Shown in pieces: positions 1-35,072 of a stretch of DNA of 64,000 bases (positions are counted from its first letter, which is position 1; each line of letters opens with the position of its first letter). Under the pieces are notes generated by a model, which saw nothing but the letters and a program-made list of their open reading frames with translations, was not told the DNA's origin and made no database searches. The stretch covers positions 46,589 to 110,588 of the IMG/VR virus record IMGVR_UViG_3300024261_002043; one strand, given 5' to 3'. This DNA is from a virus. The position numbers were made by a program, and so were the translations under genes.

Positions 1-113
1 ACTTTATCTGTTTTTACATTAATACCCTGGTAAAAGGGAGATACGGACCCTGTGAGGGTTGCTCTTGTACCTTTTGTTAGGCTTCCGCTTAATACTCTGT
101 CACTATCCGCCAT
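1..113 (-). CDS. Partial gene (N-terminus only, runs off the window); probable virion structural protein
   Basis: ATG at 113, just after the stop of the 1174-aa gene. Hand translation MADSDRVLSGSLTKGTRATLTGSVSPFYQGINVKTDK is open to the window edge. Confidence 0.6.
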   Translation of the reverse strand, partial: MADSDRVLSGSLTKGTRATLTGSVSPFYQGINVKTDK

Positions 114-117
114 CTTG

Positions 118-3100
118 CTACCGCCTCTTCATATTAGCTATCAGCTGTCTTAGGTAAAGCGCGCCTTTAAGATTGCGTCTATCGTTTACCCCCAAATATA
201 TGTCACCAGATCCGTAGGCTACCCTAGGGCGCTCTAAAATATGCGGTTCGACAATCATATTAAATCCTAGATAGTTAGTCTTTTTAGGTATTAGATTTTC
301 TATTATTATATCGAAAGACTCATCTAACCATCTGAAGAATTCAAAAAATGCGGTGTAGTTCACACTACCAGTTAGACGATTAAAATATATTTCTCTTAAC
401 CTTGTTAGTCCCTGGTATTCTGTCGCGAACATATTTTCTGGCCCACCTATAATATTCTCCAAAGACTCTAGCGTAGCGAATATTTTTATAATATCCTCAT
501 TCAGCGCTTGAGCAACAGAGAACTCTATAGAAAATCTTACATCATCCATCGGCTCAAGATCAGGAGGCAATTCGTATATTGGAGCGAATGAAGAGTCAAA
601 GTCTACTACGTTTTGAGCAAGATCCATACCAGCAAGTCTAACTTTATTATCGTCAGATATTTCGTCAAACACCGGAGATATTATAGAGAAGTCAAATCTT
701 TCAGGCTTTATTATTTGCACGCTTTGCTCAAATCCTCTTAGATATCCAACATTGCTACTGCTACCAGTGTTTAATAAAGATTGCTGTGAAAAATCGACTA
801 ACTCCAGGTATCCAGATGAATTAGACGCAGTCAAAGGTTGATCCGTTGATAAATCAAGACGTAATCTTTCAAACGAACCGGTTACCTCGCTGTTAAAACC
901 AAAATTTACCAGTGGCTCGTCGACGCCTAAAGACAGAAAGCTTCTAGCATGCTCTTTCACCTCTTTATCAGATAAAGCTTTAGACCAAAAACGAAAATGT
1001 CCTGACTTGCCGGCAAATGCTGTTGTCCGTGCAATATCAGGCACAGTAGAATGGTTTAAGAAATAATTCTTTGTAGTATCTATGCTTTGGTGGCCTACTA
1101 CTAAAAACGATCCAGAGTTGTTGATCGCTGCTGAAGTTGTTGGATTACTTTTTAATTGTAGCGCGTTTGGTATGGCACCTAAAGCTGTTTGTGGCGCTTC
1201 TAAAAACAACGAAGATGTGGTATACATCTCGACTATTTCACCAGACTCCTGGCGAGACAGATTTATGAAGTAGCTAGATGATACTTCACTTTCAATAGCG
1301 TCATTTCTTTTTCTGCCGATTGATGTGTACCATTTGTTCCCGTCGAAGATATTCGCGCCGGTCAACTTGAGGCTGAGTGTTTCATCTGTGGAGCTGAATC
1401 CGGGTCTGCAATATAGCGTTAGATCTGGATTGTCTGTATCTTCGTCTATATTGGGGTTAGCTACTAAATTTAAAATAACACCATGAGTTGGTGACGACCC
1501 TGTTACATGTATTCGAAACAAGCTTTGTGGTGACCGAAATGATTTTGCTACAGGAAACTTAAACCGGCCCTCGACTGTCCAACTTCCAGATGTTAACAGC
1601 CCGTCGTTTTCATTATCAGAAATGCCGTGTGGGGGAAATGATCCAATAGATTCAAATAACCCAGCAGGAGCTGGGGCGCCAAGCTCAAGACGAGATGATG
1701 ATAAGTACGGGCTAACCAAATTTGGCTTGCTAGAGTTGAAGCCCTGGCTATCGATAGTTGATGATGGGTCGTATGTTATACTTCCTGAGAAATCTGTTAA
1801 CGTTGAGACCTCTGTTATGTTTCTTCTTGACTTTCCTAAGCGCAGCTCTCTTGATCCTCCGTACTCGACAAACCGAAACATTCTGTTTGGATCAATACCA
1901 GCAGATCTAAATAACGACTTTATAGCATGAACAGTACCTTTTGACGTTATAACTTCATTCATGTTTGTCAGTATTCTACGCCACATTTCATTTTGTAGTA
2001 ACTTTAGCGAATCCGTCTCTCCCCCTGCGCCGGCAACACCCTCACCAGAAAAGAATTGATCGTAATTTGCGTTCTTAAACAGGTTTGGAAGATCGAAACC
2101 GTAATACTCAGCTAAAAATGGCAGCATTTGATCAGCTACGCTTACAGATGAATCATAATCGATATGTACCATTTCAGAAACATGGTCAATCATCATCTTT
2201 AGTTCGTCAAAACTTCTTGCCCACGTAAAAAGTAGCGCAGATATTATCTGTGGTTGACCTATTTTTGTGGAACCCGGTAATGCGTATTTGTCTGCCGTAC
2301 TTTTTATACCTTCGTAGGTTCCTCCTTCTCGTGAGTCACCAGTCGACGTCATAGACGCGCGAGCGATGTCTAAATAATGTTCAGGGATTAAGCTGGTTAT
2401 GATATTAGGATTATTCTCATCGTAAGTAGAGCCGCTAGTCAGTAAGTCTTCATTTAATGCGACAATATCTGCATGACCCGGAAATAACGTGGGATGATAA
2501 TCTTTTTCCTCGTACTTGTATAAGCTGTCTACAGGCTTTGCTACTCTTACTTTGGCAGAATAGTTTGATATCCTAGAATGCAAACTTTGACCTGAATGAT
2601 CCAGCACAACATCTGAATTTGCGTATGAACCAGTGGCTTCGTTAAATCTAAGACTCAGCTTGGGATCTTCCTCAGCATATAGCGTTCTAACAGAATATCG
2701 ATCTATTTCCTGAGCACTTCTTGTTTTGTGAAATACCCTAAAGTTGTTTATAGATCCTGATAACGTTTGAGTCGGTGTAAAAGTAGTCGTCGACGACCCG
2801 GTGCCAATCAGAAATGGGCTACCACCAGTGTTTATAGATCCAAAAGATGATCTAGACGATACACCCAAAGTTTTAGAACCACTCATTATGAAGCTTTTGT
2901 TTGAAGAAGGAGAGTTATCATATGAAAGACATATGTGCGAAAACTTTCCTTTCTCTAAAGACGCGCTGTTTTGTAATACTAGTGACCCGCTTAAAACGTC
3001 AAATTTGACGTCGACGTTGTCAGCTACAGCTGACGACGCCTCCAAGTATGCGGCGTAGCCCACTCCTTCGCTAGATATATGATGGAATATGTATTGAGGT

Positions 3101-3642
3101 TCTGACTTTTCATTTGGCACGGAAATGTCTAACTCTATAAAAAATGAATTGTTGTTCGGACTTAGTATCGTTGCTCCATCACTTCTTTTTGATATTGAAG
3201 GAAACGTAACTCCTGCCCTATCATTAACATGTATGTATTGATCGTCATCAAAGGTCAGATATCCGGTATACGAAGGATAACGGTTTAAGATATAGTTCTC
3301 AAAACCCGTTAGGTTATCTAACCAGTTATCGTACTCTTTCCTAGTGCCGTCAAAGGGGAACTGATTTATTATTTTTTCAAATGCAAGATTGACGTTAGTC
3401 ATAGCAGAGGAAAAGAATGTGTGATTTTCAAAATTTGAATAATCAACAGGCAGCTGCTGCGTGCTACGAAGAGGAGAACCAGGGGGATCTAGTCTAAATG
3501 ATCCTGTCAAACTATCTGGAGCTGATCCACTCATGGAATTTTGATTTTGCTCTTTTAAAACTCCTGTAGATGTTGTAAAGCGCCGGACAACCCTGGGTGT
3601 AAATAACCTTTGGTTCTGGAATATTCTTTTCTTCCTTGACAT
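118..3642 (-). CDS. Large baseplate/tail structural protein with LamG (concanavalin A-like) domains and a tail-protein-I/gp7-like segment
   Basis: LamG-like motifs (FSHICLSYD...FLIG...LSGSINNFRVF; FAGKSGHFRFWSKALS). LPFLAEYYGFDL...WRRILTN...SKGTVHAIKSLF resembles the wedge/tail-I motif. Downstream of gp6 and gp25. Confidence 0.7.
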   Translation of the reverse strand: MSRKKRIFQNQRLFTPRVVRRFTTSTGVLKEQNQNSMSGSAPDSLTGSFRLDPPGSPLRSTQQLPVDYSNFENHTFFSSAMTNVNLAFEKIINQFPFDGTRKEYDNWLDNLTGFENYILNRYPSYTGYLTFDDDQYIHVNDRAGVTFPSISKRSDGATILSPNNNSFFIELDISVPNEKSEPQYIFHHISSEGVGYAAYLEASSAVADNVDVKFDVLSGSLVLQNSASLEKGKFSHICLSYDNSPSSNKSFIMSGSKTLGVSSRSSFGSINTGGSPFLIGTGSSTTTFTPTQTLSGSINNFRVFHKTRSAQEIDRYSVRTLYAEEDPKLSLRFNEATGSYANSDVVLDHSGQSLHSRISNYSAKVRVAKPVDSLYKYEEKDYHPTLFPGHADIVALNEDLLTSGSTYDENNPNIITSLIPEHYLDIARASMTSTGDSREGGTYEGIKSTADKYALPGSTKIGQPQIISALLFTWARSFDELKMMIDHVSEMVHIDYDSSVSVADQMLPFLAEYYGFDLPNLFKNANYDQFFSGEGVAGAGGETDSLKLLQNEMWRRILTNMNEVITSKGTVHAIKSLFRSAGIDPNRMFRFVEYGGSRELRLGKSRRNITEVSTLTDFSGSITYDPSSTIDSQGFNSSKPNLVSPYLSSSRLELGAPAPAGLFESIGSFPPHGISDNENDGLLTSGSWTVEGRFKFPVAKSFRSPQSLFRIHVTGSSPTHGVILNLVANPNIDEDTDNPDLTLYCRPGFSSTDETLSLKLTGANIFDGNKWYTSIGRKRNDAIESEVSSSYFINLSRQESGEIVEMYTTSSLFLEAPQTALGAIPNALQLKSNPTTSAAINNSGSFLVVGHQSIDTTKNYFLNHSTVPDIARTTAFAGKSGHFRFWSKALSDKEVKEHARSFLSLGVDEPLVNFGFNSEVTGSFERLRLDLSTDQPLTASNSSGYLELVDFSQQSLLNTGSSSNVGYLRGFEQSVQIIKPERFDFSIISPVFDEISDDNKVRLAGMDLAQNVVDFDSSFAPIYELPPDLEPMDDVRFSIEFSVAQALNEDIIKIFATLESLENIIGGPENMFATEYQGLTRLREIYFNRLTGSVNYTAFFEFFRWLDESFDIIIENLIPKKTNYLGFNMIVEPHILERPRVAYGSGDIYLGVNDRRNLKGALYLRQLIANMKRR

Positions 3643-3643
3643 T

Positions 3644-5215
3644 CTAGACCACCCTAAACGCTATATTTTCTAATTTGACTAATCTTTCTACACTCATGTC
3701 ATTTACCAAAAGCTCTATAGAGTAGATTCTTCCCTTTGGTAAACCTGACGGCTTGAAGCTTATAAACATTCCAGATGCATCGGTTGAAACTTTTGTTGAG
3801 TTACGTTTTTTATCGAACGGAATAATAACTTTTCCTGTTTCTACATCAACGATCCTATAGTAACATGAATCTACAACTATGCTTTTTCTAGTTCTTGGAA
3901 GCTTATACGAGTTTTCGGTTGCCTCTGCGTCTAAGTCTTCTACGAACAATCTGACAGATACCGTCGAACTGTCTTTGTATTCTGATTGCGCACCAACAGG
4001 AGTTATATACAGTCTTCTGTTAGAAAATCCGGATATAGATCTATTCGACTTTTTAACAGTTATCGAACCAGAATAAAAACTCGTAGATAAATCGTTAGTT
4101 GACCAGATCTCTTTAAGCTCTACCTCACCTCTAGTTTTAGGTGTTTGACCAAAGAATGTTGTGTTAAATCTGCTTAGGTTAAATGTCCCAGAATACACTC
4201 CTGTCATTCCTTGACCGGTTGATGAACCGGTATGCTGCGATGCCAAAACAGTAAATGTTGTTTCGCTCTTTGTTCCTGAGCCTGAAACAAACCTAAGAGT
4301 TACACAATTTTGCCCCGTTAATTGAGTCAATGAAGCATCACTAATTAGGTTTGCAGGGTTTCCTGATTCAAAGTTTTTAAGGAATAAAGATGATGATAGA
4401 TTAAACTGCAAATCTAGATGTCTATCCCTTATTGAGTCATCCCAGGTAAGTACTAATCGCGGTCGTAATAGACTATTTTTAGATTGTCTTGACAAAAACC
4501 TTTTTACGAACCTTGTCTTTGTATCACTTTCATCAGATCCGCTAAACGCTATTCTAAAGCCTTTGTTAGGTATATGACCTACTAAGGAAGCAGATACAGC
4601 TGTCGTTACGTCAAGAAATAGATCACCGGGTCCTTCGTCAAAATACTTGGATGAACCAAAATCAACGACTGTACCATCTGCTAGCGTTCCCGTTGTTACA
4701 TAGTCACCAGCTACGGGGGTTTCATCTATTCCTGACAATGGACAAGCCTGTCCTGCTCCAGACATGATCCAAGAAACATTCGAACCATCTAAATAAGACG
4801 CGGTTAGAAAATTTGCTGTATCGACATCTGAGAACTGTGATGTACTTCTGCCGGCGCCTTCGTCGAACGCCACCGCTAAGGGGTTACATAGAATGCTAAA
4901 GTTTCTTGGGACCGGTGTACCGGAAGGAACCTCAAATAACTGTAGTTCTGCCTTAAAAGAACTGCTATGTATGTTTAGCGATGATGACAACAGAGGCGGT
5001 ATTTCAGAGTAGTCAAACTTTACTAAAATTCTGCTTAACTCTTCAACTGAAGATGTTACTCTAGTCGAGCCTGACATGAAACTGGACTCATCGTACAGCT
5101 TAAATAAGTCTAAAGTACCGGCGCGGCCGACGTTTGCATCTGCTGCCCTAAACTTGTTTGAGATAATTTTGTTTGTAATGTATGTATCTGCGCTTGCTGT
5201 TATTATATAAAACAT
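3644..5215 (-). CDS. Virion structural protein (DNRLRE-like beta-sandwich N-terminus)
   Basis: ASADTYI...SRILVKFD...RPRLVLTWDD pattern; Ser/Thr/Gly-rich; inside the baseplate cluster. Confidence 0.5.
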   Translation of the reverse strand: MFYIITASADTYITNKIISNKFRAADANVGRAGTLDLFKLYDESSFMSGSTRVTSSVEELSRILVKFDYSEIPPLLSSSLNIHSSSFKAELQLFEVPSGTPVPRNFSILCNPLAVAFDEGAGRSTSQFSDVDTANFLTASYLDGSNVSWIMSGAGQACPLSGIDETPVAGDYVTTGTLADGTVVDFGSSKYFDEGPGDLFLDVTTAVSASLVGHIPNKGFRIAFSGSDESDTKTRFVKRFLSRQSKNSLLRPRLVLTWDDSIRDRHLDLQFNLSSSLFLKNFESGNPANLISDASLTQLTGQNCVTLRFVSGSGTKSETTFTVLASQHTGSSTGQGMTGVYSGTFNLSRFNTTFFGQTPKTRGEVELKEIWSTNDLSTSFYSGSITVKKSNRSISGFSNRRLYITPVGAQSEYKDSSTVSVRLFVEDLDAEATENSYKLPRTRKSIVVDSCYYRIVDVETGKVIIPFDKKRNSTKVSTDASGMFISFKPSGLPKGRIYSIELLVNDMSVERLVKLENIAFRVV

Positions 5216-5222: not shown

Positions 5223-7067
5223 TTATCTCACTGTCACGACGATGTCATCAGATGGATACCTTACTTCAAACATAGAGCCATTTGGACCTACAATCATTTC
5301 TTGTATCGTATTCCCATCTACACTAAACGTAACGTCGCTGTACGTTCTGGTGTCTATTTTTCCGCTTAGATTAGAAACTTTAAAGTCTACCAAAGATATT
5401 ACTCCGTCGCTGTTTAATATCGCGTTCATAATATCTGCCTTCGGAATAGGTTGGTCAATTTGCATGTTTCTTATATCTAATAGGTTCTTAAGATTTATTA
5501 TAATCCTTTGTGCAACTTGATTTTTATTAGAATCTGGATGTGCAACGACGTCTATGAAGACACCTAGATTAATAACAGCAGAGTCCATGATGTCATACGC
5601 ATCGCTAACAGCCCTATATTCATTTAGATATTTTCTTAAATTCTTCTTCAAGGTATCTGACGACATCTTTAACTTTCCAGATCTATCTCTTGATACTATG
5701 AAAATTTGAGATGCCAAAGAATTAATAGGGTTTGGTCGTATGCCAACCCTGAATACCCTACCGAATGCATTTGGCAAAGTGTATATTCTAGCTATCAGGT
5801 CTGACTTTGTTACAATTCTTGATTGACTATTTCTACTGGCAGGTATTTGTGACCTTAGCTCTTCTATAGTCGGTGCGCGGTCACCGTCTAAAGCAGGAAG
5901 AGGGTTTGTAACGTCTATACTAGACCTCACTGCCGCGGCTTCTGCAGCTAACGCAGCTTGTGGAAACTTTAAAAATAATCTTGTTATTGTGCGTACAGAC
6001 CCTGCGCCGACATTGTGCTTTAGACCTCCGCCGGCCCTATATGATATAGTAACAGTTGTGTTTCTAGGCGATATTCCCAACGTTTGAGTCTGCATCATCT
6101 TGTTAGGGTCTATGGTAAATCTAGAAAACGTTTTCTTACCGTATAGTGGCAAAGCTAAATCAGAGGGATCTGGAAGCAGATCATTATCCGTTGTCTGGGC
6201 GTCACCTGACCCGAATTGGACTGTTGTTAATTTTGTATCGTAGTCATAGTCTGTTATGAACCTATAGGGTGCCGGAGCAACTTCGAGATTATACTCTACG
6301 TCGTCACTATCATAAGCTTTATTCATGATCCTTTTAAATACAGTATCTTGAGACAAGGACTCTACTTCGTAATATTCATTCCCATCGCTATCCTTTACGC
6401 TGACTATATCTGTTACATTTTCATCAGGTAATATCAGCTTGCGGAACGCTTTTCTAACATTAGGTATCGGAAATGACTCATCTTTTCTTGTACCAGATAT
6501 TGTTAGACCCGACATGATTACAACAAATGATGTCGGGTTGTTACTCGCGTCAGTAGCAACAACAACCGACTCATATAGATAATTTCCGTCCTTATCTTTT
6601 TTAGAGAAATCTAAATCATCCATTAGAGTAAAGCTAACACCGTCATTAGAAACGAATGTTGTGGATGACTGTACGACGGGAAGCAGATTTCTCTTAGGTA
6701 TGTATTGACCCTCTAATACTTCTGCTGGCAGCTCAAAATATATTTTTATCATAGCGACAGAAGGATTTGCGCCTCGCGCTTTGACACCAGCATTTCTTAG
6801 ATGCCTCTTTATGTTTTTATTCTCTACAGCCGTTGACCAGTTTAGCTCATTAAATTGATGATCCAAATAATAAGACATAGTGTCACCAACATATGACGCC
6901 ATATCTAAAAGTAGACCTCCTAGCCCTGGCTCTGTAAAGTCCTGTATCTTATCTGAAAAGAATAATTTAGCATGAGAAAATAATTCATTCCGAAAAGACT
7001 GGAAGTCTTTTGCAAGATAATTTCTCTTGTTAGCATTCTTCAGCTGCTTCTTAACGTTAATCGCCAT
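5223..7067 (-). CDS. Baseplate wedge protein, T4 gp6/baseplate-J-like
   Basis: YLAKDFQSFRNEL...QDFTEPGLGGLLLDMASYVGDTMSYYLD, QFGSG, YRAGGG, SQSRIVTKSD are hallmark gp6-family motifs. Confidence 0.88.
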   Translation of the reverse strand: MAINVKKQLKNANKRNYLAKDFQSFRNELFSHAKLFFSDKIQDFTEPGLGGLLLDMASYVGDTMSYYLDHQFNELNWSTAVENKNIKRHLRNAGVKARGANPSVAMIKIYFELPAEVLEGQYIPKRNLLPVVQSSTTFVSNDGVSFTLMDDLDFSKKDKDGNYLYESVVVATDASNNPTSFVVIMSGLTISGTRKDESFPIPNVRKAFRKLILPDENVTDIVSVKDSDGNEYYEVESLSQDTVFKRIMNKAYDSDDVEYNLEVAPAPYRFITDYDYDTKLTTVQFGSGDAQTTDNDLLPDPSDLALPLYGKKTFSRFTIDPNKMMQTQTLGISPRNTTVTISYRAGGGLKHNVGAGSVRTITRLFLKFPQAALAAEAAAVRSSIDVTNPLPALDGDRAPTIEELRSQIPASRNSQSRIVTKSDLIARIYTLPNAFGRVFRVGIRPNPINSLASQIFIVSRDRSGKLKMSSDTLKKNLRKYLNEYRAVSDAYDIMDSAVINLGVFIDVVAHPDSNKNQVAQRIIINLKNLLDIRNMQIDQPIPKADIMNAILNSDGVISLVDFKVSNLSGKIDTRTYSDVTFSVDGNTIQEMIVGPNGSMFEVRYPSDDIVVTVR

Positions 7068-7073: not shown

Positions 7074-7571
7074 TTATCCTGCGCTATATAGAAGTACTTC
7101 TATCGTTCTTAGTTCTGTTCTTAATTTAGGGATCTTATAGCTAATACTAATCCCTATCTTTGCAACATCCTTATTATCAAAGTGATCAACAAATGGAGAG
7201 AATGTTTCAAGAGAAATATAAGGCATGTATTTCATAACTGCCTTACTAACCCTTGACATAGCTTCAGATTGAGCACCTTCATCTTGCATTTCAAAAGTTA
7301 GCTCTGCTAAGTTAGCTCCGAAATCAGGTAAACCTAATCGTTCGCCTTTATTCGTAAGGATTAAATTCTGTAGATTATCATGAATTTGATCTGGGAAATT
7401 ACGATGCATCTCTAGAAAACTTTTCCCATCATCAGATAACGCTACAGGTGTTTTTATACCTACTGGAGGTACCTCTACCTGTGAATTTGCCAGCTTACCA
7501 CTTTGCTCTACAGATACGCCTGAAGACTTAAAACTGTAAACTTTTCTATCAGAAACTCTTGTTATTGCCAT
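7074..7571 (-). CDS. Baseplate protein, T4 gp25/GPW-like
   Basis: QIHDNLQNLILTNKGERLGLPDFGANL matches the gp25 family; adjacent to gp6. Confidence 0.9.
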   Translation of the reverse strand: MAITRVSDRKVYSFKSSGVSVEQSGKLANSQVEVPPVGIKTPVALSDDGKSFLEMHRNFPDQIHDNLQNLILTNKGERLGLPDFGANLAELTFEMQDEGAQSEAMSRVSKAVMKYMPYISLETFSPFVDHFDNKDVAKIGISISYKIPKLRTELRTIEVLLYSAG

Positions 7572-15573: not shown

Positions 15574-15627
15574 TCCTGATTCATATTACGAATAAGCAAT
15601 TCATTATATAAAAGCTTATCCAGATTT

Positions 15628-16488: not shown

Positions 16489-16503
16489 TGTTTAAATCCT
16501 ATA

Positions 16504-18235: not shown

Positions 18236-18238
18236 TTC

Positions 18239-20087: not shown

Positions 20088-20094
20088 TTCCTCT

Positions 20095-21560: not shown

Positions 21561-21620
21561 AAATTAACCTACGTTTATTCTTTATTGTATCAACAATTTT
21601 TTAGTTTTTCAAACCTTGCT

Positions 21621-23821: not shown

Positions 23822-23827
23822 TTGATA

Positions 23828-26538: not shown

Positions 26539-28462
26539 CCTGCAATTTAATAAACTCTTCTGGGTGTGATCTTTCTATCGACATATGAGGTGTAGGCTTT
26601 GTAAAGTCTATTTTTTCATGAAAAATCCAGCCGCCCATTTCGCTGGCCAGCTTTTCTGACAATTCATCTATATCATTGTCAGTTACATCGCTCCATGCTT
26701 TGTCAAACATCACATTGTTCTCCGCAGTATCCTCAGAGTCGTGCCTGTACTGACTCTTCCAAAATGATGCCCAATGCATCTTATATTGCTTTATTTTTTT
26801 AGAGATATCGTACCAAGAATAATGATGTACACCTGGTATTGATGATATTACATGCTCAAACCAGTTTTCATACATAGTTAAAGCTTCACGATTACCAGCT
26901 AATGCAGCTACTCTTACATTATGGACTTCTTCATTATAGAACCCAACGTGCGGTAACCTTTCCCCAGTTTCAGCATGAATATAATCACACGTGTCTGTAC
27001 CAGGGGCAGCATAAATATTACCTGCGTCATCGAATCTCCTAAGCTCTATAGGGATACCTTGTGTGATGTGAGGCTTATTTCTACTTAGTCTCCACTTCCA
27101 TGGATTAACGTCAACCCTAACTTTCTCTTTCGATCCCCAATATTCTATTACTGGAAGCGATAAGATGTCTGTTACAACAGGAAATGACCTCATCATATGG
27201 ATAACTTTTTCGTAGTCTTCTTCGTGAACAATTTCATCAGCATCCATTTGCCAGCAAAATTCATTAGTGCATAAACTTCTAGCAGTAGCTTTAAGCTTAC
27301 CGTCTGTTTCATACGCAAATGAAGGATGATCATCAGATACTTCAACCTGTTTAATTACAAGGCGAGACTCGCTTCTTGACCATTCCGATAGTTGACTCCA
27401 GGTATCATCAGTTGACCCACCGTCTACAACAACAACTTCATCGCAAAATTGAAGCATCGATCTGACTGTTGCTTTCCAAGGATACTTCATCTTATTAGCA
27501 TTTCTCAAAGTAGTATATCCACTTAAGGTAGGCTTATGTCCATGGATAGACTTAATCGCTCTCCAAAATCTTTCACGAGCAGCGTATAGATAAGAAACCA
27601 TATCTATATGACTTCCTGTAAACCATTCTTCATTTGCATGCTGTACATGCTCATTCAATATTAGCTCACAACCTAACGCCTTTGCTTCGATTACCATTCT
27701 TGGGCATGTGTCTCCTCCACGTGGCAAGTAAACTAAACCTTTTGACTTTGAAAGTTTTTCTAACAACTCGTTATATGGTACATTCCACACGACCTCATAT
27801 TCTAAATTGTTGGTCTTACAATGTAGCTCTGCATCTTCAAAACCTTTAATCCAAGATTTTGACCCTAATACTATCCATTTAGTTCGTTCGTCTTTAGACA
27901 CTGGGTTTTGCTGGTTTTCATTTACCATAGCAAAAAATGAATTATCAAATACGCTGCTTAATACGACTGAATCATTTTTTAGTAAGAATGGAAATCTGTC
28001 GGTATATCTTTTTTCTTGGTCTTCACTCATAAACCATAAGCTTTTAGATCCATGAAAAAAAGCTGACATCATCTTTCCGTGAATTTGATCATGGCAGTCA
28101 CAAGGTACACCAGCTTCTGCTTTATGCTTTTCAATACTTCTGTACTGACAAAATTTATAGTCGTATTCCACAACTGAATAGCTTAAATTTCCGATGATTG
28201 TTGGAAACAGATTAGGGTTCATAGCAGTTGCGTTTGTAAAGACCCAGTGTTTATCAGCAGCTGACTTAAGCATAGCTAACGACACGTCTTTGGAGTGTAC
28301 TTTTTGTACAGTTATATCAACTGCGGACTGAAATAATGCCTCGGTAGTTAACTCAGCACCGCCAACGTAATCTTCTACAAAATAGTCTGCTACAAAAATT
28401 ACGTCAGCTTCTATATCAACTGTTTTTGCAGTTACTGTATTCTCAAATGGACTCTTAAGCAT
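26528..28462 (-). CDS. Two-domain glycosyltransferase (GT-B-like N-terminus plus GT2 C-terminus)
   Basis: GGAELT and DTCPRMVIEAKALGC (GT4-like) followed by VVVDGGSTD and QMDADE (GT2). Confidence 0.8.
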   Translation of the reverse strand: MLKSPFENTVTAKTVDIEADVIFVADYFVEDYVGGAELTTEALFQSAVDITVQKVHSKDVSLAMLKSAADKHWVFTNATAMNPNLFPTIIGNLSYSVVEYDYKFCQYRSIEKHKAEAGVPCDCHDQIHGKMMSAFFHGSKSLWFMSEDQEKRYTDRFPFLLKNDSVVLSSVFDNSFFAMVNENQQNPVSKDERTKWIVLGSKSWIKGFEDAELHCKTNNLEYEVVWNVPYNELLEKLSKSKGLVYLPRGGDTCPRMVIEAKALGCELILNEHVQHANEEWFTGSHIDMVSYLYAARERFWRAIKSIHGHKPTLSGYTTLRNANKMKYPWKATVRSMLQFCDEVVVVDGGSTDDTWSQLSEWSRSESRLVIKQVEVSDDHPSFAYETDGKLKATARSLCTNEFCWQMDADEIVHEEDYEKVIHMMRSFPVVTDILSLPVIEYWGSKEKVRVDVNPWKWRLSRNKPHITQGIPIELRRFDDAGNIYAAPGTDTCDYIHAETGERLPHVGFYNEEVHNVRVAALAGNREALTMYENWFEHVISSIPGVHHYSWYDISKKIKQYKMHWASFWKSQYRHDSEDTAENNVMFDKAWSDVTDNDIDELSEKLASEMGGWIFHEKIDFTKPTPHMSIERSHPEEFIKLQDES

Positions 28463-28758: not shown

Positions 28759-31700
28759 CTATTCAGCTTCTAGAATCTCTATTCTTTGCTTTATTTCTTT
28801 AAGAGCGTTAATTATGTATACACTAAGGGCATGATATGAAACACCTCGAAGCTTATCTGCTGGTAGGTCCCTACCAGTTACTAATTCAGGTATGACTGAC
28901 TCAACTTCATCTGCTATTAGCCCAGGACTAAAGTGTGTACGATCATCAGGCTGATTAATATCTCTATACAGTCTAGGTATTAATTGGCAGATCTCGTCTA
29001 GTGAATTATTAAGGTCTTGAATGTCTTTCTTTCCTCGTCGATCAGACGTCCATCTTCTAATTTCACCATTGACATTTCCAACGGCAAGGTAATCATAAGC
29101 CCCGGCATCTGAAGTAGTTCTATCTCGCATCCAGTCAGATCTTACCGTTGAAGTTGAGCCAGAAAGAACCATCGCAACATCCGGGCTTACACCAGTTGAG
29201 GTTGAGGATTTAACAGCAAAGTTAAGTTGCCCCTGAGCGTAGTTACCGCGGTCTACATAGATTAAACCAGCCCCAGTATTTCCGGCTGATGTACCAAATC
29301 CGATTCCTGCAGCTGAATGACTATCAAACGAGGTGTTTTGAAAGAACATATCAAAATATTCCGGCTTACCCCATGCACTTGCTCCCACCGTCTCACTAGG
29401 TAATGTTGCTATCTGATCGTTTAGATAAAATGAAGTATTACCACCGGCGGCGCCGGCATCAACAAACTTAAAAGCCACAGATCCAGTCATGCCTAAAGAG
29501 CCAATTTCTAAACGATCTACTGACACCGAGGTACCGGGTGTAGTTGTTCTTAATAATAAATTAGCACCGCTCTTTTTGACGCCCCCAGTTGTATCCCACG
29601 TTTCTGCGGTGATGGCTTTGATTTGGGCGCCTGTATATACATCCCCTCCGGCAGCGTTAGTGGTTCCTCTAAAGTCCAGATTTGAAAGCTCGTCGCCACT
29701 GGACAAGTTACCGTCAGTAGGATTTCGTAAGAGCACTAATCTTGCTGGCGACGCCGCGACTGTACTAGTATGCGCAATTTGTGCATTTGGGCTTAAACTG
29801 TTCTTTACACTAAGTTTGTTATCTATATTTCCAGCACCGTCAAAGCTAAGAACAGTATTACCACCAGAGTCCTTTATATCGTCCCCGTTAATTCGTATAT
29901 CGTTAGTGACCGTTAGCTCGTTTCCAACAGTTAGATTACCAACAGCTTCTATAGTTGAATCAGTCGGTGTTGCATTAGGGACAATAATAAGGTGGTCAAC
30001 AGGTGTACCTTTAGAATTGATATCATTCCCGATAGTAAAATTTTGGTCTGGATGCCGCGACGTTAATATCCAACTATCACCAGCATCATCACTTTTATCT
30101 GCAGATAATGTTAATGTTGCATTTGCATCGTTGGTAGGTTGAACAACAATTAATGATCCTGAAACTGCCAGTTGCCCGGCTATATCAACATTCTTTGTTT
30201 GGTTTGGTATAGACAGCACTTCTTCATTTAGCGTATTCCTAAGAGTGACATCGTTAGTTGTTCCGTCACCAGTTATAATGCAGCCGTCCACAGCGCTGTA
30301 GCCTATAGCAGCTACGTCAGAAGCGCTAGTATCTCCTCCTACTTGTACTTTACCTGTGAAAGAAGAATATAAAGCAGAGATCACTACAGCTATAGACTTG
30401 CTCGCAGCGCCGGTAGGGGTTACACCAAGTCGAATATTTGTCCCCTCTGCACTGCCGTGTGTCCAGGTTTCTGCCGCGTACGCTTCGACATGTGCTGTAT
30501 TTGAATATACTACGCCGCTATCTTTACCACCAAAGGAATATCGACCTATACCATCTCCGGATGCTACATTGACCTTGGAATGAAACACTCCAATTTCCAT
30601 AGGGTCGGTCTCTGATGCTTCATTTCTTAAGTAGAACTGGTTTATATCTGTCCCGGTGATGCTGTGATGAGTTGTATTATAAGATAGATCAGTACCATCA
30701 GAAAAGCTTATCTTATTACCGCTGATTGATAGCTCGTTTCCAACAGTTACGTCACCAGCAAAAACTGCGCCAGGCTCAACCGATGATCCGTCATCACTAA
30801 GAGTTAATGCCGAACGAAATGCATTTACACTAGCTCCAGATGCAGCACCTCTTCTGGCAACTTGAAAAGTTAGTGAGCCACCAACTCCATCGCCTGTACT
30901 TTGTCCTGCGCCTACCGTTAAGCTTTTTCCTGCTTGATCAGTCCCTGCAATTGCGTCAATAGTTATTGAAGAGTTGGTTGTGTTGGTTAACTCTACGTTT
31001 CCTTTTAAGCGCGTCGACCCAGTAACATGAAGTCCTGATCTTGCTGCTACAACCTGCTCGAATCTTGTTTGGACAAAAGCGCTTTCCCCACCCCCTCCGC
31101 CTGGAAACAGAGTAACATGTTTATTACCAGAACTTACATCATTATCGTATAAGCCTCCAGCAACGAAAAAATGTCCAGCAGTACCAACCTGTCCGCCGCC
31201 TGTGCTATTCATTAACAAAGAATACGGAGAGACAGCAGCTGCTGTGAACTGAATATTTTCACCTGCAGAAACCTCTAAAGCCTCTTCTGCTGTTATAAGC
31301 AAATCTCCGTCAGTACCACCGACACCCGATTCTCTTTGTATAAATGATGAAGCGTTGCCAAAGTATAGGGTCGAGGTTCCGGTTGGAGACGCAACATTCT
31401 CACCAATCATAACGGCTTTACTAGCACCTTGTACATGCAGATCAACCGCAGGAGATGAAAGCTCTGCATCTCCGCCGATACCGACTGCACCATTCTTCAT
31501 ATGCATAGTGTTAAAGTAATCCACACCAGCAGCTTTAGTTCCAAACCGTACTCTCCTATCTGAAGCACCACCTTCCCAAATAATCGATGCCATATTAGAG
31601 TCATCTGTACCAAGGTTAACGTAAGCGTTTGTATTGACAACGCTAAACCTTGTGTTCGTAGCATCGTCTGTCAAAGATAAGTCACCACCAATAGCAAACG

Positions 31701-31827
31701 TAGTGTTAGGTGCGCTTGACATACCGATACCAATCTTAGGTCCTACTGCGTCACGCGATGCGGTGACGAATAAATGGTCACCTGTGCTAGACCTTAATTC
31801 CAAAGATCCTGTTGTGTAAATCGACAT
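28759..31827 (-). CDS. Tail fibre with C-terminal intramolecular chaperone (peptidase S74) domain
   Basis: Gly/Ser/Thr-rich fibre body; TSDRRGKKDIQDL...GLIADEVESVIPELV...INALKEIKQRIEILE is the S74 autocleavage and coiled-coil signature. Confidence 0.88.
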   Translation of the reverse strand: MSIYTTGSLELRSSTGDHLFVTASRDAVGPKIGIGMSSAPNTTFAIGGDLSLTDDATNTRFSVVNTNAYVNLGTDDSNMASIIWEGGASDRRVRFGTKAAGVDYFNTMHMKNGAVGIGGDAELSSPAVDLHVQGASKAVMIGENVASPTGTSTLYFGNASSFIQRESGVGGTDGDLLITAEEALEVSAGENIQFTAAAVSPYSLLMNSTGGGQVGTAGHFFVAGGLYDNDVSSGNKHVTLFPGGGGGESAFVQTRFEQVVAARSGLHVTGSTRLKGNVELTNTTNSSITIDAIAGTDQAGKSLTVGAGQSTGDGVGGSLTFQVARRGAASGASVNAFRSALTLSDDGSSVEPGAVFAGDVTVGNELSISGNKISFSDGTDLSYNTTHHSITGTDINQFYLRNEASETDPMEIGVFHSKVNVASGDGIGRYSFGGKDSGVVYSNTAHVEAYAAETWTHGSAEGTNIRLGVTPTGAASKSIAVVISALYSSFTGKVQVGGDTSASDVAAIGYSAVDGCIITGDGTTNDVTLRNTLNEEVLSIPNQTKNVDIAGQLAVSGSLIVVQPTNDANATLTLSADKSDDAGDSWILTSRHPDQNFTIGNDINSKGTPVDHLIIVPNATPTDSTIEAVGNLTVGNELTVTNDIRINGDDIKDSGGNTVLSFDGAGNIDNKLSVKNSLSPNAQIAHTSTVAASPARLVLLRNPTDGNLSSGDELSNLDFRGTTNAAGGDVYTGAQIKAITAETWDTTGGVKKSGANLLLRTTTPGTSVSVDRLEIGSLGMTGSVAFKFVDAGAAGGNTSFYLNDQIATLPSETVGASAWGKPEYFDMFFQNTSFDSHSAAGIGFGTSAGNTGAGLIYVDRGNYAQGQLNFAVKSSTSTGVSPDVAMVLSGSTSTVRSDWMRDRTTSDAGAYDYLAVGNVNGEIRRWTSDRRGKKDIQDLNNSLDEICQLIPRLYRDINQPDDRTHFSPGLIADEVESVIPELVTGRDLPADKLRGVSYHALSVYIINALKEIKQRIEILEAE

Positions 31828-34800
31828 TATTCTATATCCTCCAGCGGAGTAAGTCCCATTTTGTATTTTTTGCCTGTTAAATTATTAACCACCACCAACA
31901 TATCGGGTTCCTCATATATCGTCCAGTTGCCGCGCTCATTCTTGAGGTGTAAGTCTCCAGTGTATACGTTCGCCCATCTGTGATCTGGTGACCCAAGACT
32001 GTAAGTACTATTAGCTCCAGGAAGCATGCTTCCCGTCATTGCTAAATGACCAGTACCGCCTCCAGCTTCTAATATGATTACACCATTAGATTCAGCATTC
32101 TTTAATTTCAGTTTCTCAACTGAATCTTCTAAAAATCCATGGATCGTTCTGTTGGTGCTCTTTAACGCGATGGTATTGTTACTGTCCATTTGCAGAGTAC
32201 CATACGCAGTCATATATTTTGTACTAGAGATATCTAAAGCTGTTTGACCACCGGACCCAACCTTAAATGACATACCGACATTTTTTGCGCTGATGTCTAC
32301 TCTTGTGGATCCTGGATCTACTAACTCTATACTACCTGTAACTGCTAGCGCTGTCGCTCCTGTTCCGGATGAAGCTCCAACCTGCAGTGGTATTGAATTA
32401 GCGGTACCAGGAGGAGTTAGGGTATAGGGGTTTTGAATTCTCAGTGCGCCAGATACCACCATATCTCCACCGAATACTGCGACCCCTCTTTCTACTGTTC
32501 CTATTCCTAAGTCTTCTCTACTATCTATTGCTCCGCTTACGAAGAAGAAGACATCCTTACCAATTTGGTTTGTTCGTCTAGCTACATAGCCGTCTGTCTT
32601 ACGATCATGGTCAAACGAAAAAGATCCTGTCGAAGCGATATATGATAGATAGGGAACACTACCATCTTGATGTGTAACAGCGAATACATCTGAATTGTCT
32701 GTTACGCTTAGCGCCGCTAGCTGTGTTAATGTATATGGTGAGCTTGGTGATGCAGTATCAGAAAACTCTAAGTGGTTACCAGATGTCCTTCTAATTTGTA
32801 CATCAGAATCTCTAAATCTTAAATAGGGTTCATTGGCAGTAGCACTACTTAGTGTAAGATTTGCTATGTCTAGAGCTGTGACAGAAAATGTACCTTCCAA
32901 CGCCGTATTACCAGAAACAACAAGATCACCGGAGACAAGTGTAACACCTCTAGTATTTGAATCTTTAGTCCCAACCGTACCGCTTAATATTGTACGTACG
33001 TCTCTGTGCCTATTAGCAGTAAACAGACCGGGTAGCTCAGAAAGCGCTGAGCCTACGCTAATGTAACCTTCTCGAATTCCGGTGCCATTAAATTGGTCAC
33101 TTGCTGATAAGACAAGCACTGGACCGCCTACCAGCTCTTCAGAAGAAGCGCTTAATATAAGTCCTGATTCTTCACCAACGTGAGTCGCACCAATGTTAAC
33201 ACCTCTTGACCCCGTAACACATAATCCTTCTGAATCATTCGCTGAGAATATGTAATGCGCGCTCGTCTGGAATCTAACCTTGGCGTTAGTCCCAGTATCA
33301 CCGATGACTAATACACCACCAGCATCAGCATGTTGAAGTCTTAACTGATCGGAGAAAGACTTGATCTGCTGTGTCTTTGATCCCCCTTGTCCGTCGAAGT
33401 ATAGTGCTGTGTCATCTGCTATTTCAACTCCCCGCACTCCGGACGCGTTGGGAGTTAGGAATATAGATCCATCGTCATTCTGGATTTTTAGTTCAGTTGC
33501 ACCGGAATTTATAGAGGCAGTTACGAATGTATTTGTAAATCCGCTACCGGTTCTGTTTTTGAATATGAGTCCGGCTGCTTGAATATTTACAGGTTGAGCA
33601 GCGTCTATACTTGTAATCGCGCCGTCTTGGACATCCATGTACCCTGCTCTAAATGCTCCAGGAGCCGCAGTACCTTCCGCAGTACCAAAAACAAGCGCGT
33701 TATTATTGATAGTAGAACCTGATGCGATTGCGATACCACCCTTGGTGCTATTAGTCGTCGACCCGGAAGCTAAAATAATTAAGGCATCTTTGACTCTAAG
33801 ATTTTCGGTACCAATAGTTGTTACTGAGCCTGATACATTCAAGTCACCAACGACAGTTAGGTTCTTATCAAAAGTTGCATTACCTGAACCGCTAAGGTGT
33901 AAAGCTAGGACGCCATCAGCGCCCTTTATATCTTGACCGTTTATCTGTATGTCACCAGCAATAATAGTTGGAAGAACAGAGCCTCCAAGCGTGATCGCTG
34001 TATTACCGTCTGAACCCTTTATATCACTTCCCATGACTGTAAGATCACCTGCGATCAGTACATTATCATCGGTGTCCATAGTAATTGTGCTGCCGCCATC
34101 TGAAGCTTTTATTATGTTACCGGCTACTGTAAGGTTTCCAGTCGTTGTAACATCACCACCAGCGCCTAATGTTATATTCGTACCAGCTGAACCTTTAATG
34201 TCATTACCAGTAACTGTAAGATCACCAGAAACTGAGACATCACCTGAAGCACCTAAAGTTAAGTTAGTGCCAGCTGAGCCTTTTATATCATTTCCGACAA
34301 CAGTTAGATCAGCTGCCAAGGAAACATTCTGGTCGACATCCATCGAAATAGTGATCTCACCTTCACTATTCTTTATATCATTACCATTTATTTGAAGGTC
34401 ACCACCGATAGTAAAGTCACCCGGCACGGTGAATATAGATAACGGAGATAAGCTAAAGTTACCAGACACATGAACATCACCATCAAATAATGCTAACCCT
34501 CTATCATTTGAGTCCTTAACTCCCCTTGAGCCTGATACATGAAAGAAGACATCCTTATGTGTAGTTGGAAATTGCGTAGCGTATGCGTATACACCGGCGA
34601 CGCCTTGTACCATATTAAAAGATATAGTACCGTCTCTATTAGCTGAGGGATTACTGGTTGTCGGGTCGACGAGTATTCTGGCATATCCAGTCGTATAATC
34701 CTCTGGCGTGGTTTTTATTCCACCGATTACTTTATTAAACGCCTTAAAGTCACCCGGGACGGCGTCATCTACTTCTATTACAGACCGTTCAGACCATAGT

Positions 34801-35072
34801 GTACCACTGACTACGACGTCACCCCCGAACAGTACAGTACTACCGTCGGCTCTGTTCCAGGCCTCAACAGCAGAATTCGCAGCGCCATCGAAGTACAGCC
34901 ATACATCGTTACCAACCTTTGTCGTATCAAGGCCTGTAGTTAAGCCATCATAGTTCGCGGCTTTTGAACCACTGTAAAACATGAGGTTCAAATTCTTCTT
35001 ACCAGGGACCACTGATCCGGTACCAATAATAGCTCTTGTTCTTACTCTATCTGATCTAAAATCTTTTGCCAT
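31827..35072 (-). CDS. Long tail fibre/appendage protein with internal repeats
   Basis: Repeated GDLTVxGNDIKGS units; C-terminal LGSPDHRWANVYTGDLHL...GNWTIYEE...NNLTGKKYK end typical of phage fibres. Confidence 0.85.
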   Translation of the reverse strand: MAKDFRSDRVRTRAIIGTGSVVPGKKNLNLMFYSGSKAANYDGLTTGLDTTKVGNDVWLYFDGAANSAVEAWNRADGSTVLFGGDVVVSGTLWSERSVIEVDDAVPGDFKAFNKVIGGIKTTPEDYTTGYARILVDPTTSNPSANRDGTISFNMVQGVAGVYAYATQFPTTHKDVFFHVSGSRGVKDSNDRGLALFDGDVHVSGNFSLSPLSIFTVPGDFTIGGDLQINGNDIKNSEGEITISMDVDQNVSLAADLTVVGNDIKGSAGTNLTLGASGDVSVSGDLTVTGNDIKGSAGTNITLGAGGDVTTTGNLTVAGNIIKASDGGSTITMDTDDNVLIAGDLTVMGSDIKGSDGNTAITLGGSVLPTIIAGDIQINGQDIKGADGVLALHLSGSGNATFDKNLTVVGDLNVSGSVTTIGTENLRVKDALIILASGSTTNSTKGGIAIASGSTINNNALVFGTAEGTAAPGAFRAGYMDVQDGAITSIDAAQPVNIQAAGLIFKNRTGSGFTNTFVTASINSGATELKIQNDDGSIFLTPNASGVRGVEIADDTALYFDGQGGSKTQQIKSFSDQLRLQHADAGGVLVIGDTGTNAKVRFQTSAHYIFSANDSEGLCVTGSRGVNIGATHVGEESGLILSASSEELVGGPVLVLSASDQFNGTGIREGYISVGSALSELPGLFTANRHRDVRTILSGTVGTKDSNTRGVTLVSGDLVVSGNTALEGTFSVTALDIANLTLSSATANEPYLRFRDSDVQIRRTSGNHLEFSDTASPSSPYTLTQLAALSVTDNSDVFAVTHQDGSVPYLSYIASTGSFSFDHDRKTDGYVARRTNQIGKDVFFFVSGAIDSREDLGIGTVERGVAVFGGDMVVSGALRIQNPYTLTPPGTANSIPLQVGASSGTGATALAVTGSIELVDPGSTRVDISAKNVGMSFKVGSGGQTALDISSTKYMTAYGTLQMDSNNTIALKSTNRTIHGFLEDSVEKLKLKNAESNGVIILEAGGGTGHLAMTGSMLPGANSTYSLGSPDHRWANVYTGDLHLKNERGNWTIYEEPDMLVVVNNLTGKKYKMGLTPLEDIE

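What the first reader, a model, noticed from the sequence alone, without database searches (positions are those of the whole stretch)
1..35072. Outer virion proteins are studded with [S/T]-G-S tripeptides: a candidate glycosylation sequon for the neighbouring glycan locus
Seen: by hand count, [S/T]GS occurs about 15 times in the 1174-aa baseplate protein, 5 times in the 523-aa protein, 12 and 5 times in the two fibres, and twice in the 37-aa fragment at the window edge. Many [S/T]AS and SSS variants also occur. The motif is scattered through unrelated folds rather than sitting in a repeat unit. I saw none in the gp6-like or hub/spike proteins or in PrkA. These genes directly flank a 17-kb soluble glycosylation locus. 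Inference: the tripeptide is a selected acceptor signal for phage-encoded O-glycosylation (or another modification) of exposed virion surfaces. That would be a sequon-directed viral glycan shield.
Basis: partly seen in the sequence, partly recalled or inferred. Interest (0 to 1): 0.85.

Follow-up and report, generated by a model that had tools for sequence, protein, structure and literature searches.

The report
Ser/Thr-Gly-Ser tag on phage tail proteins
The outer tail, baseplate and fibre proteins of this uncultured marine jumbo phage carry the ordered tripeptide Ser/Thr-Gly-Ser five to ten times too often, and across relatives this excess tracks one phage sugar-transferase gene, so it is probably where the phage attaches sugars to its own tail, although no chemistry shows this yet.

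Summary
The hand counts are exact: 15, 5, 5, 12 and 2. Shuffles expect 1.9, 1.2, 2.6 and 2.6, and only the 1022-aa fibre is not significant. TGS and SGS are by far the most over-represented tripeptides (z 11 and 9). SGT, TGT, AGS, NGS, SAS and SSS are not enriched. Codons vary, so selection acts on the protein. The fuller motif is hydrophobic-[S/T]-G-S-hydrophobic, which is 10-25x enriched in tail modules.

The excess is a clade trait. It occurs in 120 marine homologues and in Flavobacterium phage immuto, Microcystis phage Mel-JY01 and Rhodothermus phage RM378. It is absent from T4, PA5oct and Atu_ph07.

New here: megaphage LR756508 is nested in this clade. It keeps a sugar island and GT4b but lacks GT4a, and it lacks the excess. 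Its orthologous tail proteins use other turn residues at the same positions. Of 365 genes of a complete relative, GT4a is the only annotated enzyme whose distribution matches the motif.

Best reading (about 0.45): an acceptor tag for phage-encoded O-glycosylation started by the GT4 pair. The tie is to that pair, not to the variable 17-kb island as such. Nothing here shows an attached sugar.

This scan has flagged the same motif more than 100 times on other phage DNA, with similar verdicts.

The parts
1..113 (-). N-terminal 37 aa of a 322-aa tail protein that runs off the window (G000 45733-46701). It has 2 [ST]GS sites here and 3 in all, against 0.47 expected.
118..3642 (-). 1174-aa peripheral baseplate protein with LamG/pentraxin-like beta-sandwich domains. 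It has 15 [ST]GS sites against 1.9 expected.
   Evidence: Laminin_G_3; sites conserved in 120 homologues; model and fold matches
3644..5215 (-). 523-aa protein built as a chain of beta-sandwich domains. It has 5 sites against 1.2 expected.
   Evidence: (pLDDT 80.5, pTM 0.80)
5223..7067 (-). gp6-like baseplate wedge protein with no sites. It serves as an internal negative control.
   Evidence: (phrog_219)
7074..7571 (-). gp25-like baseplate protein with no sites.
   Evidence: GPW_gp25
7910..9736 (-). 608-aa protein at the hub or spike position, with no sites and no family match.
10117..10845 (-). Late-sigma-like protein that lies between the GT4 pair and the baseplate genes in all relatives.
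   Evidence: (phrog_234)
11149..12327 (-). GT4a, a 392-aa family-4 glycosyltransferase. It is the only annotated enzyme whose presence or absence matches the motif excess, and it is the candidate protein-directed transferase.
12331..13593 (-). GT4b, a 420-aa family-4 glycosyltransferase with a conserved E-x7-E motif and BshA/MshA-like similarity. It is more conserved than the baseplate proteins.
13668..14552 (-). PD-(D/E)XK nuclease that travels with the GT4 pair in the marine relative G003, immuto and Mel-JY01.
14596..26538 (-). Variable middle of the sugar island: GMD, PseB-like dehydratase, GDP-fucose synthase, LegC/PseC-like aminotransferase, methyltransferases, a GT11 and three GT2. All are predicted soluble. 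Few are shared with relatives.
26528..28462 (-). 644-aa GT2 with an unknown 330-aa N-terminal region. It is conserved only in the marine jumbo clade, next to the fibres.
28759..31827 (-). 1022-aa fibre with a C-terminal Peptidase_S74 chaperone domain. It has 5 sites against 2.6 expected, which is not significant.
31827..35072 (-). 1081-aa fibre or tail-spike-like protein with 12 sites against 2.6 expected.

Best explanation
The pentapeptide hydrophobic-[Ser/Thr]-Gly-Ser-hydrophobic is a tag read by a phage enzyme. Most likely the hydroxyl of the first residue is the acceptor for O-glycosylation in the host cytoplasm. The conserved GT4a/GT4b pair (11149-13593) would start the glycan. In this phage the soluble, strain-variable sugar enzymes of the island (14596-28462) may extend it. 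The tag sits where a beta-strand ends in a tight turn, on the peripheral baseplate and fibre proteins.

Shown:
- the enrichment and its order-specificity;
- its restriction to tail-periphery proteins;
- positional conservation within families, and turnover between deep lineages;
- co-variation with GT4a;
- absence of membrane or export genes in the island.

Inferred:
- that the tag is modified at all;
- that the modification is a sugar;
- which residue carries it;
- which enzyme does which step.
For: 1. Specificity. TGS (z 11) and SGS (z 9) are the top tripeptides. SGT, TGT, AGS, NGS and DGS are not enriched. 36 different codon combinations encode the 39 sites.
2. The excess occurs in proteins with no mutual BLAST similarity and with different folds. 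It is absent from the gp6-like, gp25-like, hub, portal and terminase proteins, and the major head protein is not enriched.
3. It is not a general property of myovirus tails: T4 structural proteins 7 vs 10.3; PA5oct ratio 1.26; Atu_ph07 ratio 1.28.
4. At the 11 major sites of 120 homologues, position 1 is S or T in 97%, with free S/T exchange and under 1% D, N or A. Position 2 is G in 91%. Position 3 is S in 84% and tolerates A or T. Motif serines are more conserved than other serines (0.75 vs 0.43, p 2e-5).
5. The GT4b-GT4a pair lies directly upstream of the baseplate module in every one of the IMG/VR relatives whose upstream flank reaches that far. It also occurs in the motif-rich cultured phages immuto and Mel-JY01.
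6. Natural knock-out. LR756508 is nested in the clade. It has GT4b, GMD and Fcl but no GT4a in 484 kb. It shows no excess (128 vs 89; 5-mer 10 vs 8.7). Its orthologous tail proteins carry other turn residues at the aligned positions, for example TGS replaced by NGY, TNS or NAG. The folds therefore do not need the motif.
7. An unbiased phyletic profile of all 365 ORFs of complete relative G003 asked for genes present in immuto and Mel-JY01 and absent from LR756508, PA5oct and Atu_ph07. It returned only GT4a, a weakly detectable motif-bearing substrate, and one 222-aa unknown.
8. All island proteins lack transmembrane segments.
9. Precedent: the TibC/Aah heptosyltransferases modify Ser followed by small residues (S-G-G, S-A-A) in beta-helix autotransporters (PMC4358343).
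Against: - No chemical evidence of any modification.
- The flanking residues are hydrophobic. Two of the 20 modelled sites lie inside a helix or strand, and solvent exposure could not be computed because no coordinates were available.
- The correlated loss is a single evolutionary event in one metagenome-assembled genome.
- RM378 has a moderate excess but only a doubtful GT4a (N-terminal 43 aa, E 0.001).
- GT4b of Mel-JY01 is split into two ORFs in different frames, yet that phage keeps the motif.
- The GT4 pair travels with a PD-(D/E)XK nuclease and weakly matches Pfam 'GT4-conflict', so it could act on DNA or another acceptor.
- GT4a shows no specific similarity to known protein O-glycosyltransferases. 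The SdgB match is far below cut-off, and PDB profile hits are generic GT4.
Confidence: 0.45

Rival explanations
1. The motif is purely structural. Hydrophobic-[ST]-G-S-hydrophobic would be a lineage-preferred tight turn (a type II'-like hairpin or beta-bulge) that helps beta-rich tail proteins fold or pack. Nothing is attached, and the match with GT4a is a coincidence of shared ancestry.
For: - Sites lie at strand ends, and several are two-residue G-S hairpins (218 and 254 in the 1174-aa model; 48 in the 523-aa model).
- Hydrophobic residues flank the motif at -1 (63%) and +3 (54%).
- Positions are conserved within families.
Against: - Turn preferences are universal, yet T4, PA5oct, Atu_ph07 and the nested LR756508 show no excess.
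- LR756508 orthologues build the same proteins with NG, NA or TN at those positions.
- D and N, the usual equivalents of S and T in such turns (my own knowledge of Asx/ST-turns), are under 1% at position 1.
- The same tripeptide recurs in non-homologous folds of one phage but not in its inner baseplate or head proteins.
Confidence: 0.25
2. The tag is read by another trans-acting factor. This could be a tail-fibre assembly chaperone or a different modification such as Ser/Thr phosphorylation or acylation, and not a glycosyltransferase.
For: The arguments for an external reader are the same: order-specificity, non-homologous carriers, and absence in LR756508. A 222-aa protein of unknown function (G003 181875-182543) has the same phyletic pattern as GT4a.
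Against: - The obvious candidates in the window do not co-vary. The PrkA/YeaH/SpoVR trio and the GroEL-like protein have no homologues in the motif-rich immuto and Mel-JY01.
- GT4a is the only annotated enzyme with the right distribution.
Confidence: 0.15
3. The GT4 pair and the sugar island serve something other than the virion, such as glycosylation of phage DNA or remodelling of host surface glycans during infection. The motif would then have an unrelated cause.
For: - A nuclease-GT4b-GT4a triad is conserved.
- There are weak 'GT4-conflict' Pfam matches.
- Published annotations of cyanophage sugar genes usually assume host-surface or DNA roles (PMC12801897).
- LR756508 keeps a sugar island without the motif.
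Against: - A thymidylate-synthase-like hydroxymethylase, needed for T4-type sugar-bearing bases, is found in only 2 of 5 relatives.
- The island has no lipid-carrier, flippase or polymerase genes and no membrane proteins.
- The GT4 pair is embedded in the baseplate operon, after a late-sigma-like gene, in all marine relatives.
- This reading leaves the GT4a-motif co-variation unexplained.
Confidence: 0.12
4. The excess is a chance or composition artefact of Ser/Gly/Thr-rich fibre proteins.
For: The 1022-aa fibre, and the 1252-aa and 2167-aa fibres further along the contig, are rich in G, S and T and are not or only weakly enriched.
Against: - Shuffles give p < 0.0005 for three proteins.
- The Markov-1 null gives 51 vs 26.
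- The tripeptide z-scores of 9-11 are far above all others.
- The excess is replicated in 120 homologues and four distant lineages.
Confidence: 0.01

Closest known systems
Bacterial autotransporter heptosyltransferases (TibC/TibA, Aah/AIDA-I; eLife 2014, PMC4358343)
   Same: A soluble cytoplasmic transferase hyper-glycosylates many serines of a beta-rich surface protein. The mapped acceptor serines are followed by small residues (S-G-G, S-A-A), much like [ST]-G-S at turns.
   Different: The enzyme there is a dodecameric ADP-heptose transferase with an iron-finger, not a GT4. Its substrates are one family of repeat autotransporters, not a set of unrelated phage tail proteins. Threonine is not used there, whereas S and T are interchangeable here.
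Mycobacteriophage virion glycosylation by phage-encoded glycosyltransferases (Freeman et al. 2023, Cell Host Microbe 31:1216; reference seen, paper not held, details from my own knowledge)
   Same: Phage-encoded glycosyltransferases placed among structural genes O-glycosylate the phage's own virion proteins in the cytoplasm.
   Different: As I recall it, the targets there are C-terminal extensions of capsid and tail-tube subunits, with no short sequon reported. Here the capsid is not enriched, the targets would be baseplate and fibre proteins, and a defined pentapeptide is implied.
Chlorovirus and giant-virus self-encoded glycosylation (e.g. PBCV-1; chlorovirus NY-2A glycosyltransferase B736L, PDB 3oy2)
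   Same: A virus-encoded, soluble, ER- and lipid-carrier-independent glycosylation machinery with its own nucleotide-sugar enzymes. B736L is the best solved-structure match of GT4b (E 3e-8).
   Different: As I recall it, chlorovirus glycans are N-linked to the capsid protein at atypical sites. The similarity to B736L is only family-level.
Staphylococcal SdgA/SdgB and streptococcal GtfA/GtfB (GT4 serine O-GlcNAc transferases acting as pairs)
   Same: Two adjacent GT4 enzymes act on serines of surface proteins in the cytoplasm. SdgB is the top NCBIfam name for GT4a.
   Different: That match is 23 bits against a cut-off of 800 and covers 70 residues. The substrates there are disordered Ser-Asp or Ser-rich repeats, not turns of folded beta domains. 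Membership is not supported.

Membership tests
Protein O-glycosylation sequon (any system) | A glycan is covalently attached to the Ser/Thr of the motif. | not testable with these tools
   Needs virion glycoproteomics. No such data were found in the held literature.
Protein O-glycosylation sequon (any system) | The motif is enriched beyond composition and is order-specific. | tested here: met
Protein O-glycosylation sequon (any system) | The motif co-varies with a dedicated transferase across genomes, including loss with loss. | tested here: met
   This rests on one loss event (LR756508) plus outgroups, so support is limited.
Protein O-glycosylation sequon (any system) | Acceptor sites are accessible on the folded or folding substrate. 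| tested here: inconclusive
   18 of 20 modelled sites lie at strand ends, hairpins or loops, four of them in low-confidence stretches. No coordinates were available, so no solvent accessibility.
BAHT (TibC/Aah) heptosyltransferase system | A GT9-like ADP-heptose transferase with an iron-finger and a dodecameric ring. | tested here: not met
   The conserved enzymes are Pfam Glycos_transf_1 (GT4). No heptose pathway was found in the island.
SdgB/GtfA-type GT4 serine O-GlcNAc transferases | Full-length match to the family model or to solved structures. | tested here: not met
   NF047881 scores 23 bits against a cut-off of 800. The profile search against PDB gives only generic GT4 C-domain hits, E >= 6.6e-5.
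Glycosyltransferase family 4 (Pfam Glycos_transf_1), for GT4a and GT4b | Score above the Pfam gathering cut-off, plus the C-terminal E-x7-E signature. | tested here: met
   GT4b scores 54.9 bits and GT4a 30.1 bits, against a cut-off of 26.4. E-x7-E is conserved in GT4b. GT4a has E-x7-D with the first Glu invariant.
Generic structural beta-turn or ST-turn motif | Seen wherever the fold occurs, and interchangeable with Asx or other turn formers. | tested here: not met
   Absent in T4, PA5oct, Atu_ph07 and LR756508 orthologues. D and N are under 1% at position 1.
Lipid-carrier (Wzx/Wzy or ABC) surface-polysaccharide locus | A priming polyprenyl-phosphate transferase, a flippase or ABC exporter, and a polymerase or ligase. 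| tested here: not met
   No such Pfam or NCBIfam families. No transmembrane segments in any island ORF.

The most novel reading that the evidence does not exclude
A large clade of aquatic T4-like phages infecting Bacteroidota, Rhodothermota and cyanobacteria, including marine jumbo phages, uses a true short sequon, hydrophobic-[S/T]-G-S-hydrophobic. It is read in the cytoplasm by a dedicated GT4a/GT4b pair. The pair seeds a strain-variable glycan coat on the tail periphery only. The system can be lost as a unit, as in LR756508.
Probability: 0.4. Interest if true: 0.85.

Novelty: new variant of a known kind. Interest (0 to 1): 0.65.

Why it matters
If the tag is a sequon, it would be the first defined acceptor motif for phage self-glycosylation. 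It would let glycosylated tail proteins be predicted from sequence in hundreds of abundant ocean and lake phages.

It would also explain why large, export-less sugar islands sit inside virion gene modules. A variable glycan on receptor-binding organs would bear on host range, on adsorption to debris, and on grazing or immune recognition.

Three cultured members (immuto, Mel-JY01, RM378) make it directly testable.

Tried and rejected
- A DNA-level motif (restriction or methylation site) is rejected. The 39 sites use 36 different codon combinations.
- A shared repeat domain is rejected. The enriched proteins have no mutual BLAST similarity beyond two short C-terminal tails and one short match between the two fibres.
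- PrkA-type phosphorylation and the GroEL-like protein as readers are rejected. Neither has a homologue in the motif-rich immuto or Mel-JY01.
- Avoidance of the motif in non-tail proteins was looked for and not seen. The rest of each proteome is at 1.3-1.6x.
- Solved homologues that might show the motif in a real structure: none were found for the 1174-aa family beyond LamG/pentraxin domains, and none for the 1081-aa fibre.
- Foldseek of both models gave only generic beta-sandwich matches and no baseplate protein.
- tblastn of the 1174-aa protein against cultured phages found nothing.
- Literature searches found no report of this motif or of glycosylated virions in this clade.
- The Freeman 2023 paper could not be read.
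- Phages with only weak GT4 matches (S-CBS4, S-EIVl, TJE1) were tested as possible independent co-occurrences. They show no excess, so they are uninformative.
Full report
**What the window is.** The window is the last 64 kb of a 110,588-bp IMG/VR viral contig, which CheckV rates 17% complete. Nearly all genes are on the minus strand.

In transcription order, the region of the finding reads as follows:
- two fibres (35072-28759);
- a 644-aa GT2 (28462-26528);
- about 12 kb of sugar genes;
- a PD-(D/E)XK nuclease;
- GT4b and then GT4a (13593-11149);
- a late-sigma-like gene;
- hub-like, gp25-like and gp6-like baseplate genes;
- the 523-aa and 1174-aa proteins.

Relatives reach 293-318 kb. One of them, G003, has terminal repeats and is rated complete. 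This is therefore a marine jumbo phage with T4-like head and baseplate core genes.

**Checking the observation.** Every hand count is exact. Composition-preserving shuffles expect 1.9, 1.2, 2.6 and 2.6 sites where 15, 5, 5 and 12 are seen. The 1022-aa fibre alone is not significant.

On the whole contig four further proteins are enriched or borderline:
- 795 aa: 11 vs 1.1;
- 442 aa: 5 vs 0.6;
- 322 aa: 3 vs 0.5;
- 2167 aa: 8 vs 4.0, which is borderline.

The major head protein, portal and terminase are not clearly enriched.

Among all tripeptides in the enriched set, TGS (28 vs 4.5, z 11) and SGS (28 vs 5.9, z 9) stand far above the next one (z 5.7). SGT, TGT, AGS, NGS, DGS, SAS and SSS are at chance. 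A dipeptide-preserving null still gives a two-fold excess. The 39 sites use 36 different codon combinations, so the signal is in the protein and not the DNA.

**Anatomy of the motif.** I pooled 289 sites from four phages. The residue before the motif is V, F, I, L or another hydrophobic in 63% of sites (background 31%). The residue after it is hydrophobic in 54%. Charged residues are depleted at both positions. The five-residue form hydrophobic-[ST]-G-S-hydrophobic is 10-25x enriched in tail modules, against 0.6-3x elsewhere.

Two AlphaFold models were built: the 1174-aa protein (pLDDT 72) and the 523-aa protein (pLDDT 80.5, pTM 0.80). Together they cover 20 sites:
- 18 lie at the last residue of a strand, in a two-residue G-S hairpin, just before a strand, or in loops (four of them in low-confidence stretches);
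- one lies in a helix;
- one lies inside a strand.

Solvent exposure could not be computed. Fold searches show LamG/pentraxin-like and macroglobulin/Ig/CBM-like beta-sandwiches, meaning adhesin-like decorations and not core baseplate folds. The enriched proteins share no sequence similarity with each other.

**Evolution within families.** All 120 homologues of the 1174-aa protein (40-73% identity, marine metagenomes) are enriched, with a mean of 11.9 sites against 1.75 expected. Most sites are positionally conserved; the site at residue 685, for example, is present in 118 of 120.

At the 11 major sites:
- position 1 is S or T in 97%, split S 63% and T 34%, with A, D and N each below 1%;
- position 2 is G in 91%;
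- position 3 is S in 84%, and tolerates A (7%) and T (7%).

Motif serines are markedly more conserved than other serines. The hydroxyl at position 1 is thus the most constrained feature, which is why I place the putative acceptor there.

Between deep lineages (22-35% identity) few site positions are shared, yet each lineage keeps the excess. Position turns over while density is maintained.

**Distribution across phages.** The excess is a clade trait.
- In complete relative G003, the same gene set is enriched.
- In Flavobacterium phage immuto and Microcystis phage Mel-JY01, SGS and TGS are again among the most over-represented tripeptides of the tail module (the top two in Mel-JY01; z 8-12), and the gp6-like and gp25-like proteins again have none.
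- Rhodothermus phage RM378 shows a moderate excess (5-mer 18 vs 2.9).

Controls without excess are T4 structural proteins (7 vs 10.3), the nearest cultured outgroups PA5oct and Atu_ph07 (ratios 1.26-1.28), and S-CBS4, S-EIVl and TJE1.

**Link to glycosyltransferases.**
- GT4b followed by GT4a lies immediately upstream of the baseplate module in every one of the IMG/VR relatives whose upstream flank reaches that far. GT4b (51-76% identity) is more conserved than the baseplate protein (38-66%).
- Immuto and Mel-JY01 carry the same nuclease-GT4b-GT4a unit elsewhere in the genome.
- Between G000 and G003 the ends of the island are conserved (the GT4 pair and the 644-aa GT2). The sugar-pathway genes in between largely differ.
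- All island ORFs lack transmembrane segments, and no lipid-carrier or export gene is present.

**A natural knock-out.** The 484-kb metagenomic phage LR756508 has the clade's gp6-like, head and portal genes. In TerL, portal and MCP trees it falls inside the clade. In the portal tree it sits next to immuto and Mel-JY01, and in the MCP tree it falls in the group holding them and RM378. T4, PA5oct and Atu_ph07 fall outside.

It has GT4b (31% identity), GMD and Fcl, but no GT4a anywhere, even at E <= 1. It shows no excess: 128 vs 89 overall, 5-mer 10 vs 8.7, and no large protein with P < 0.005.

Its tail proteins align with those of Mel-JY01 over long stretches, for example 27% identity over 1136 residues. 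At Mel-JY01's [ST]GS positions they carry other residues such as NGY, TNS and NAG. The folds therefore do not require the motif. The most economical history is a joint loss of GT4a and of the selection that maintains the motif.

**Unbiased phyletic profile.** I compared all 365 ORFs of G003 with the seven genomes. Genes present in immuto and Mel-JY01 but absent from LR756508, PA5oct and Atu_ph07 number only three:
- GT4a;
- the orthologue of the 523-aa protein, itself a motif carrier, whose 'absence' from LR756508 reflects low sensitivity;
- a 222-aa protein with no Pfam family match and only a weak match to a PHROG of unknown function.

The PrkA trio and the GroEL-like protein of the window are absent from immuto and Mel-JY01.

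**Interpretation.** An order-specific short peptide that recurs in unrelated folds of one lineage, is dispensable for those folds, and co-varies with one enzyme is best explained as a tag read by that enzyme. O-glycosylation by the GT4 pair is the most economical version.

Both enzymes keep GT4 catalytic signatures. GT4b resembles UDP-GlcNAc-using BshA/MshA enzymes and a chlorovirus transferase, though only at family level.

The closest mechanistic precedent is the TibC/Aah system, whose mapped acceptor serines are also followed by two small residues.

I put this reading at about 0.45 for these reasons:
- nothing shows a modification;
- the co-variation rests on one loss event in a metagenome-assembled genome;
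- RM378 and the split GT4b of Mel-JY01 are loose ends;
- the nuclease-GT4 unit could serve DNA modification.

The tie should be moved, however, from the 17-kb island to the GT4 pair, and the 'shield' wording is too broad.

The scan's index holds 106 notes on this motif in at least 96 genomes, and the follow-up verdicts shown are like mine. Those are AI notes and not independent evidence.
- the LR756508 loss;
- the genome-wide phyletic profile;
- the position-by-position substitution pattern;
- the demonstration that orthologous folds exist without the motif.

Noticed in passing
window 54000-64000: G+C rises from 0.37-0.40 to 0.45-0.47 at about 54 kb and stays high to the end of the contig. Few ORFs there have homologues in G003.
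   Followed up: no
window 35775-37091 (-): PhoH-like ATPase fused to an N-terminal PIN domain (438 aa). It is conserved at 56% in G003, and the PhoH part is also found in immuto and Mel-JY01.
   Followed up: partly
window 40853-45284 (-) and 39262-40542 (-): The PrkA/SpoVR/YeaH trio and a GroEL-like protein are conserved in G003 (58-73% and 24%). They are absent from immuto, Mel-JY01 and RM378, so they are specific to the marine jumbo clade.
   Followed up: partly
L137:3441-4932 (Mel-JY01 83441-84932): GT4b of Microcystis phage Mel-JY01 is split into a 190-aa N-domain ORF and a 302-aa C-domain ORF in different frames. This could be a frameshift, a sequencing error or a true two-chain enzyme.
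   Followed up: partly
L042:8771-9859 and L078:8703-9920: Two IMG/VR relatives have shortened orthologues of the 523-aa protein (363 and 406 aa) with 0 and 1 [ST]GS sites. The full-length orthologues have 3-9 sites.
   Followed up: no
LR756508 145763-149923: The portal gene of this megaphage is a 1386-aa ORF. The portal similarity comes in two separated pieces, which suggests an insertion (perhaps an intein or an extra domain).
   Followed up: no
G000 35455-39213 (L003:15455-19213, -): The 1252-aa fibre-like protein has a match to the ubiquitin-activating enzyme E1 FCCH domain (PF16190, E 7e-10). It is rich in G, S and T but has no [ST]GS excess (5 vs 5.1).
   Followed up: no
window 28759-31827 (-): The 1022-aa fibre ends in a Peptidase_S74 intramolecular chaperone domain (residues 928-984). 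That domain type is normally auto-cleaved after trimerisation.
   Followed up: no
PA5oct 196408-203118: In the outgroup PA5oct, one 2236-aa protein has 13 [ST]GS sites against 3.8 expected, although the genome as a whole shows no excess and has no GT4a or GT4b.
   Followed up: no
G003 181875-182543 (L096:1875-2543, +): A 222-aa protein with no Pfam family match (only a weak match to a PHROG of unknown function) shares GT4a's phyletic pattern: present in immuto and Mel-JY01, absent from LR756508, PA5oct and Atu_ph07.
   Followed up: partly
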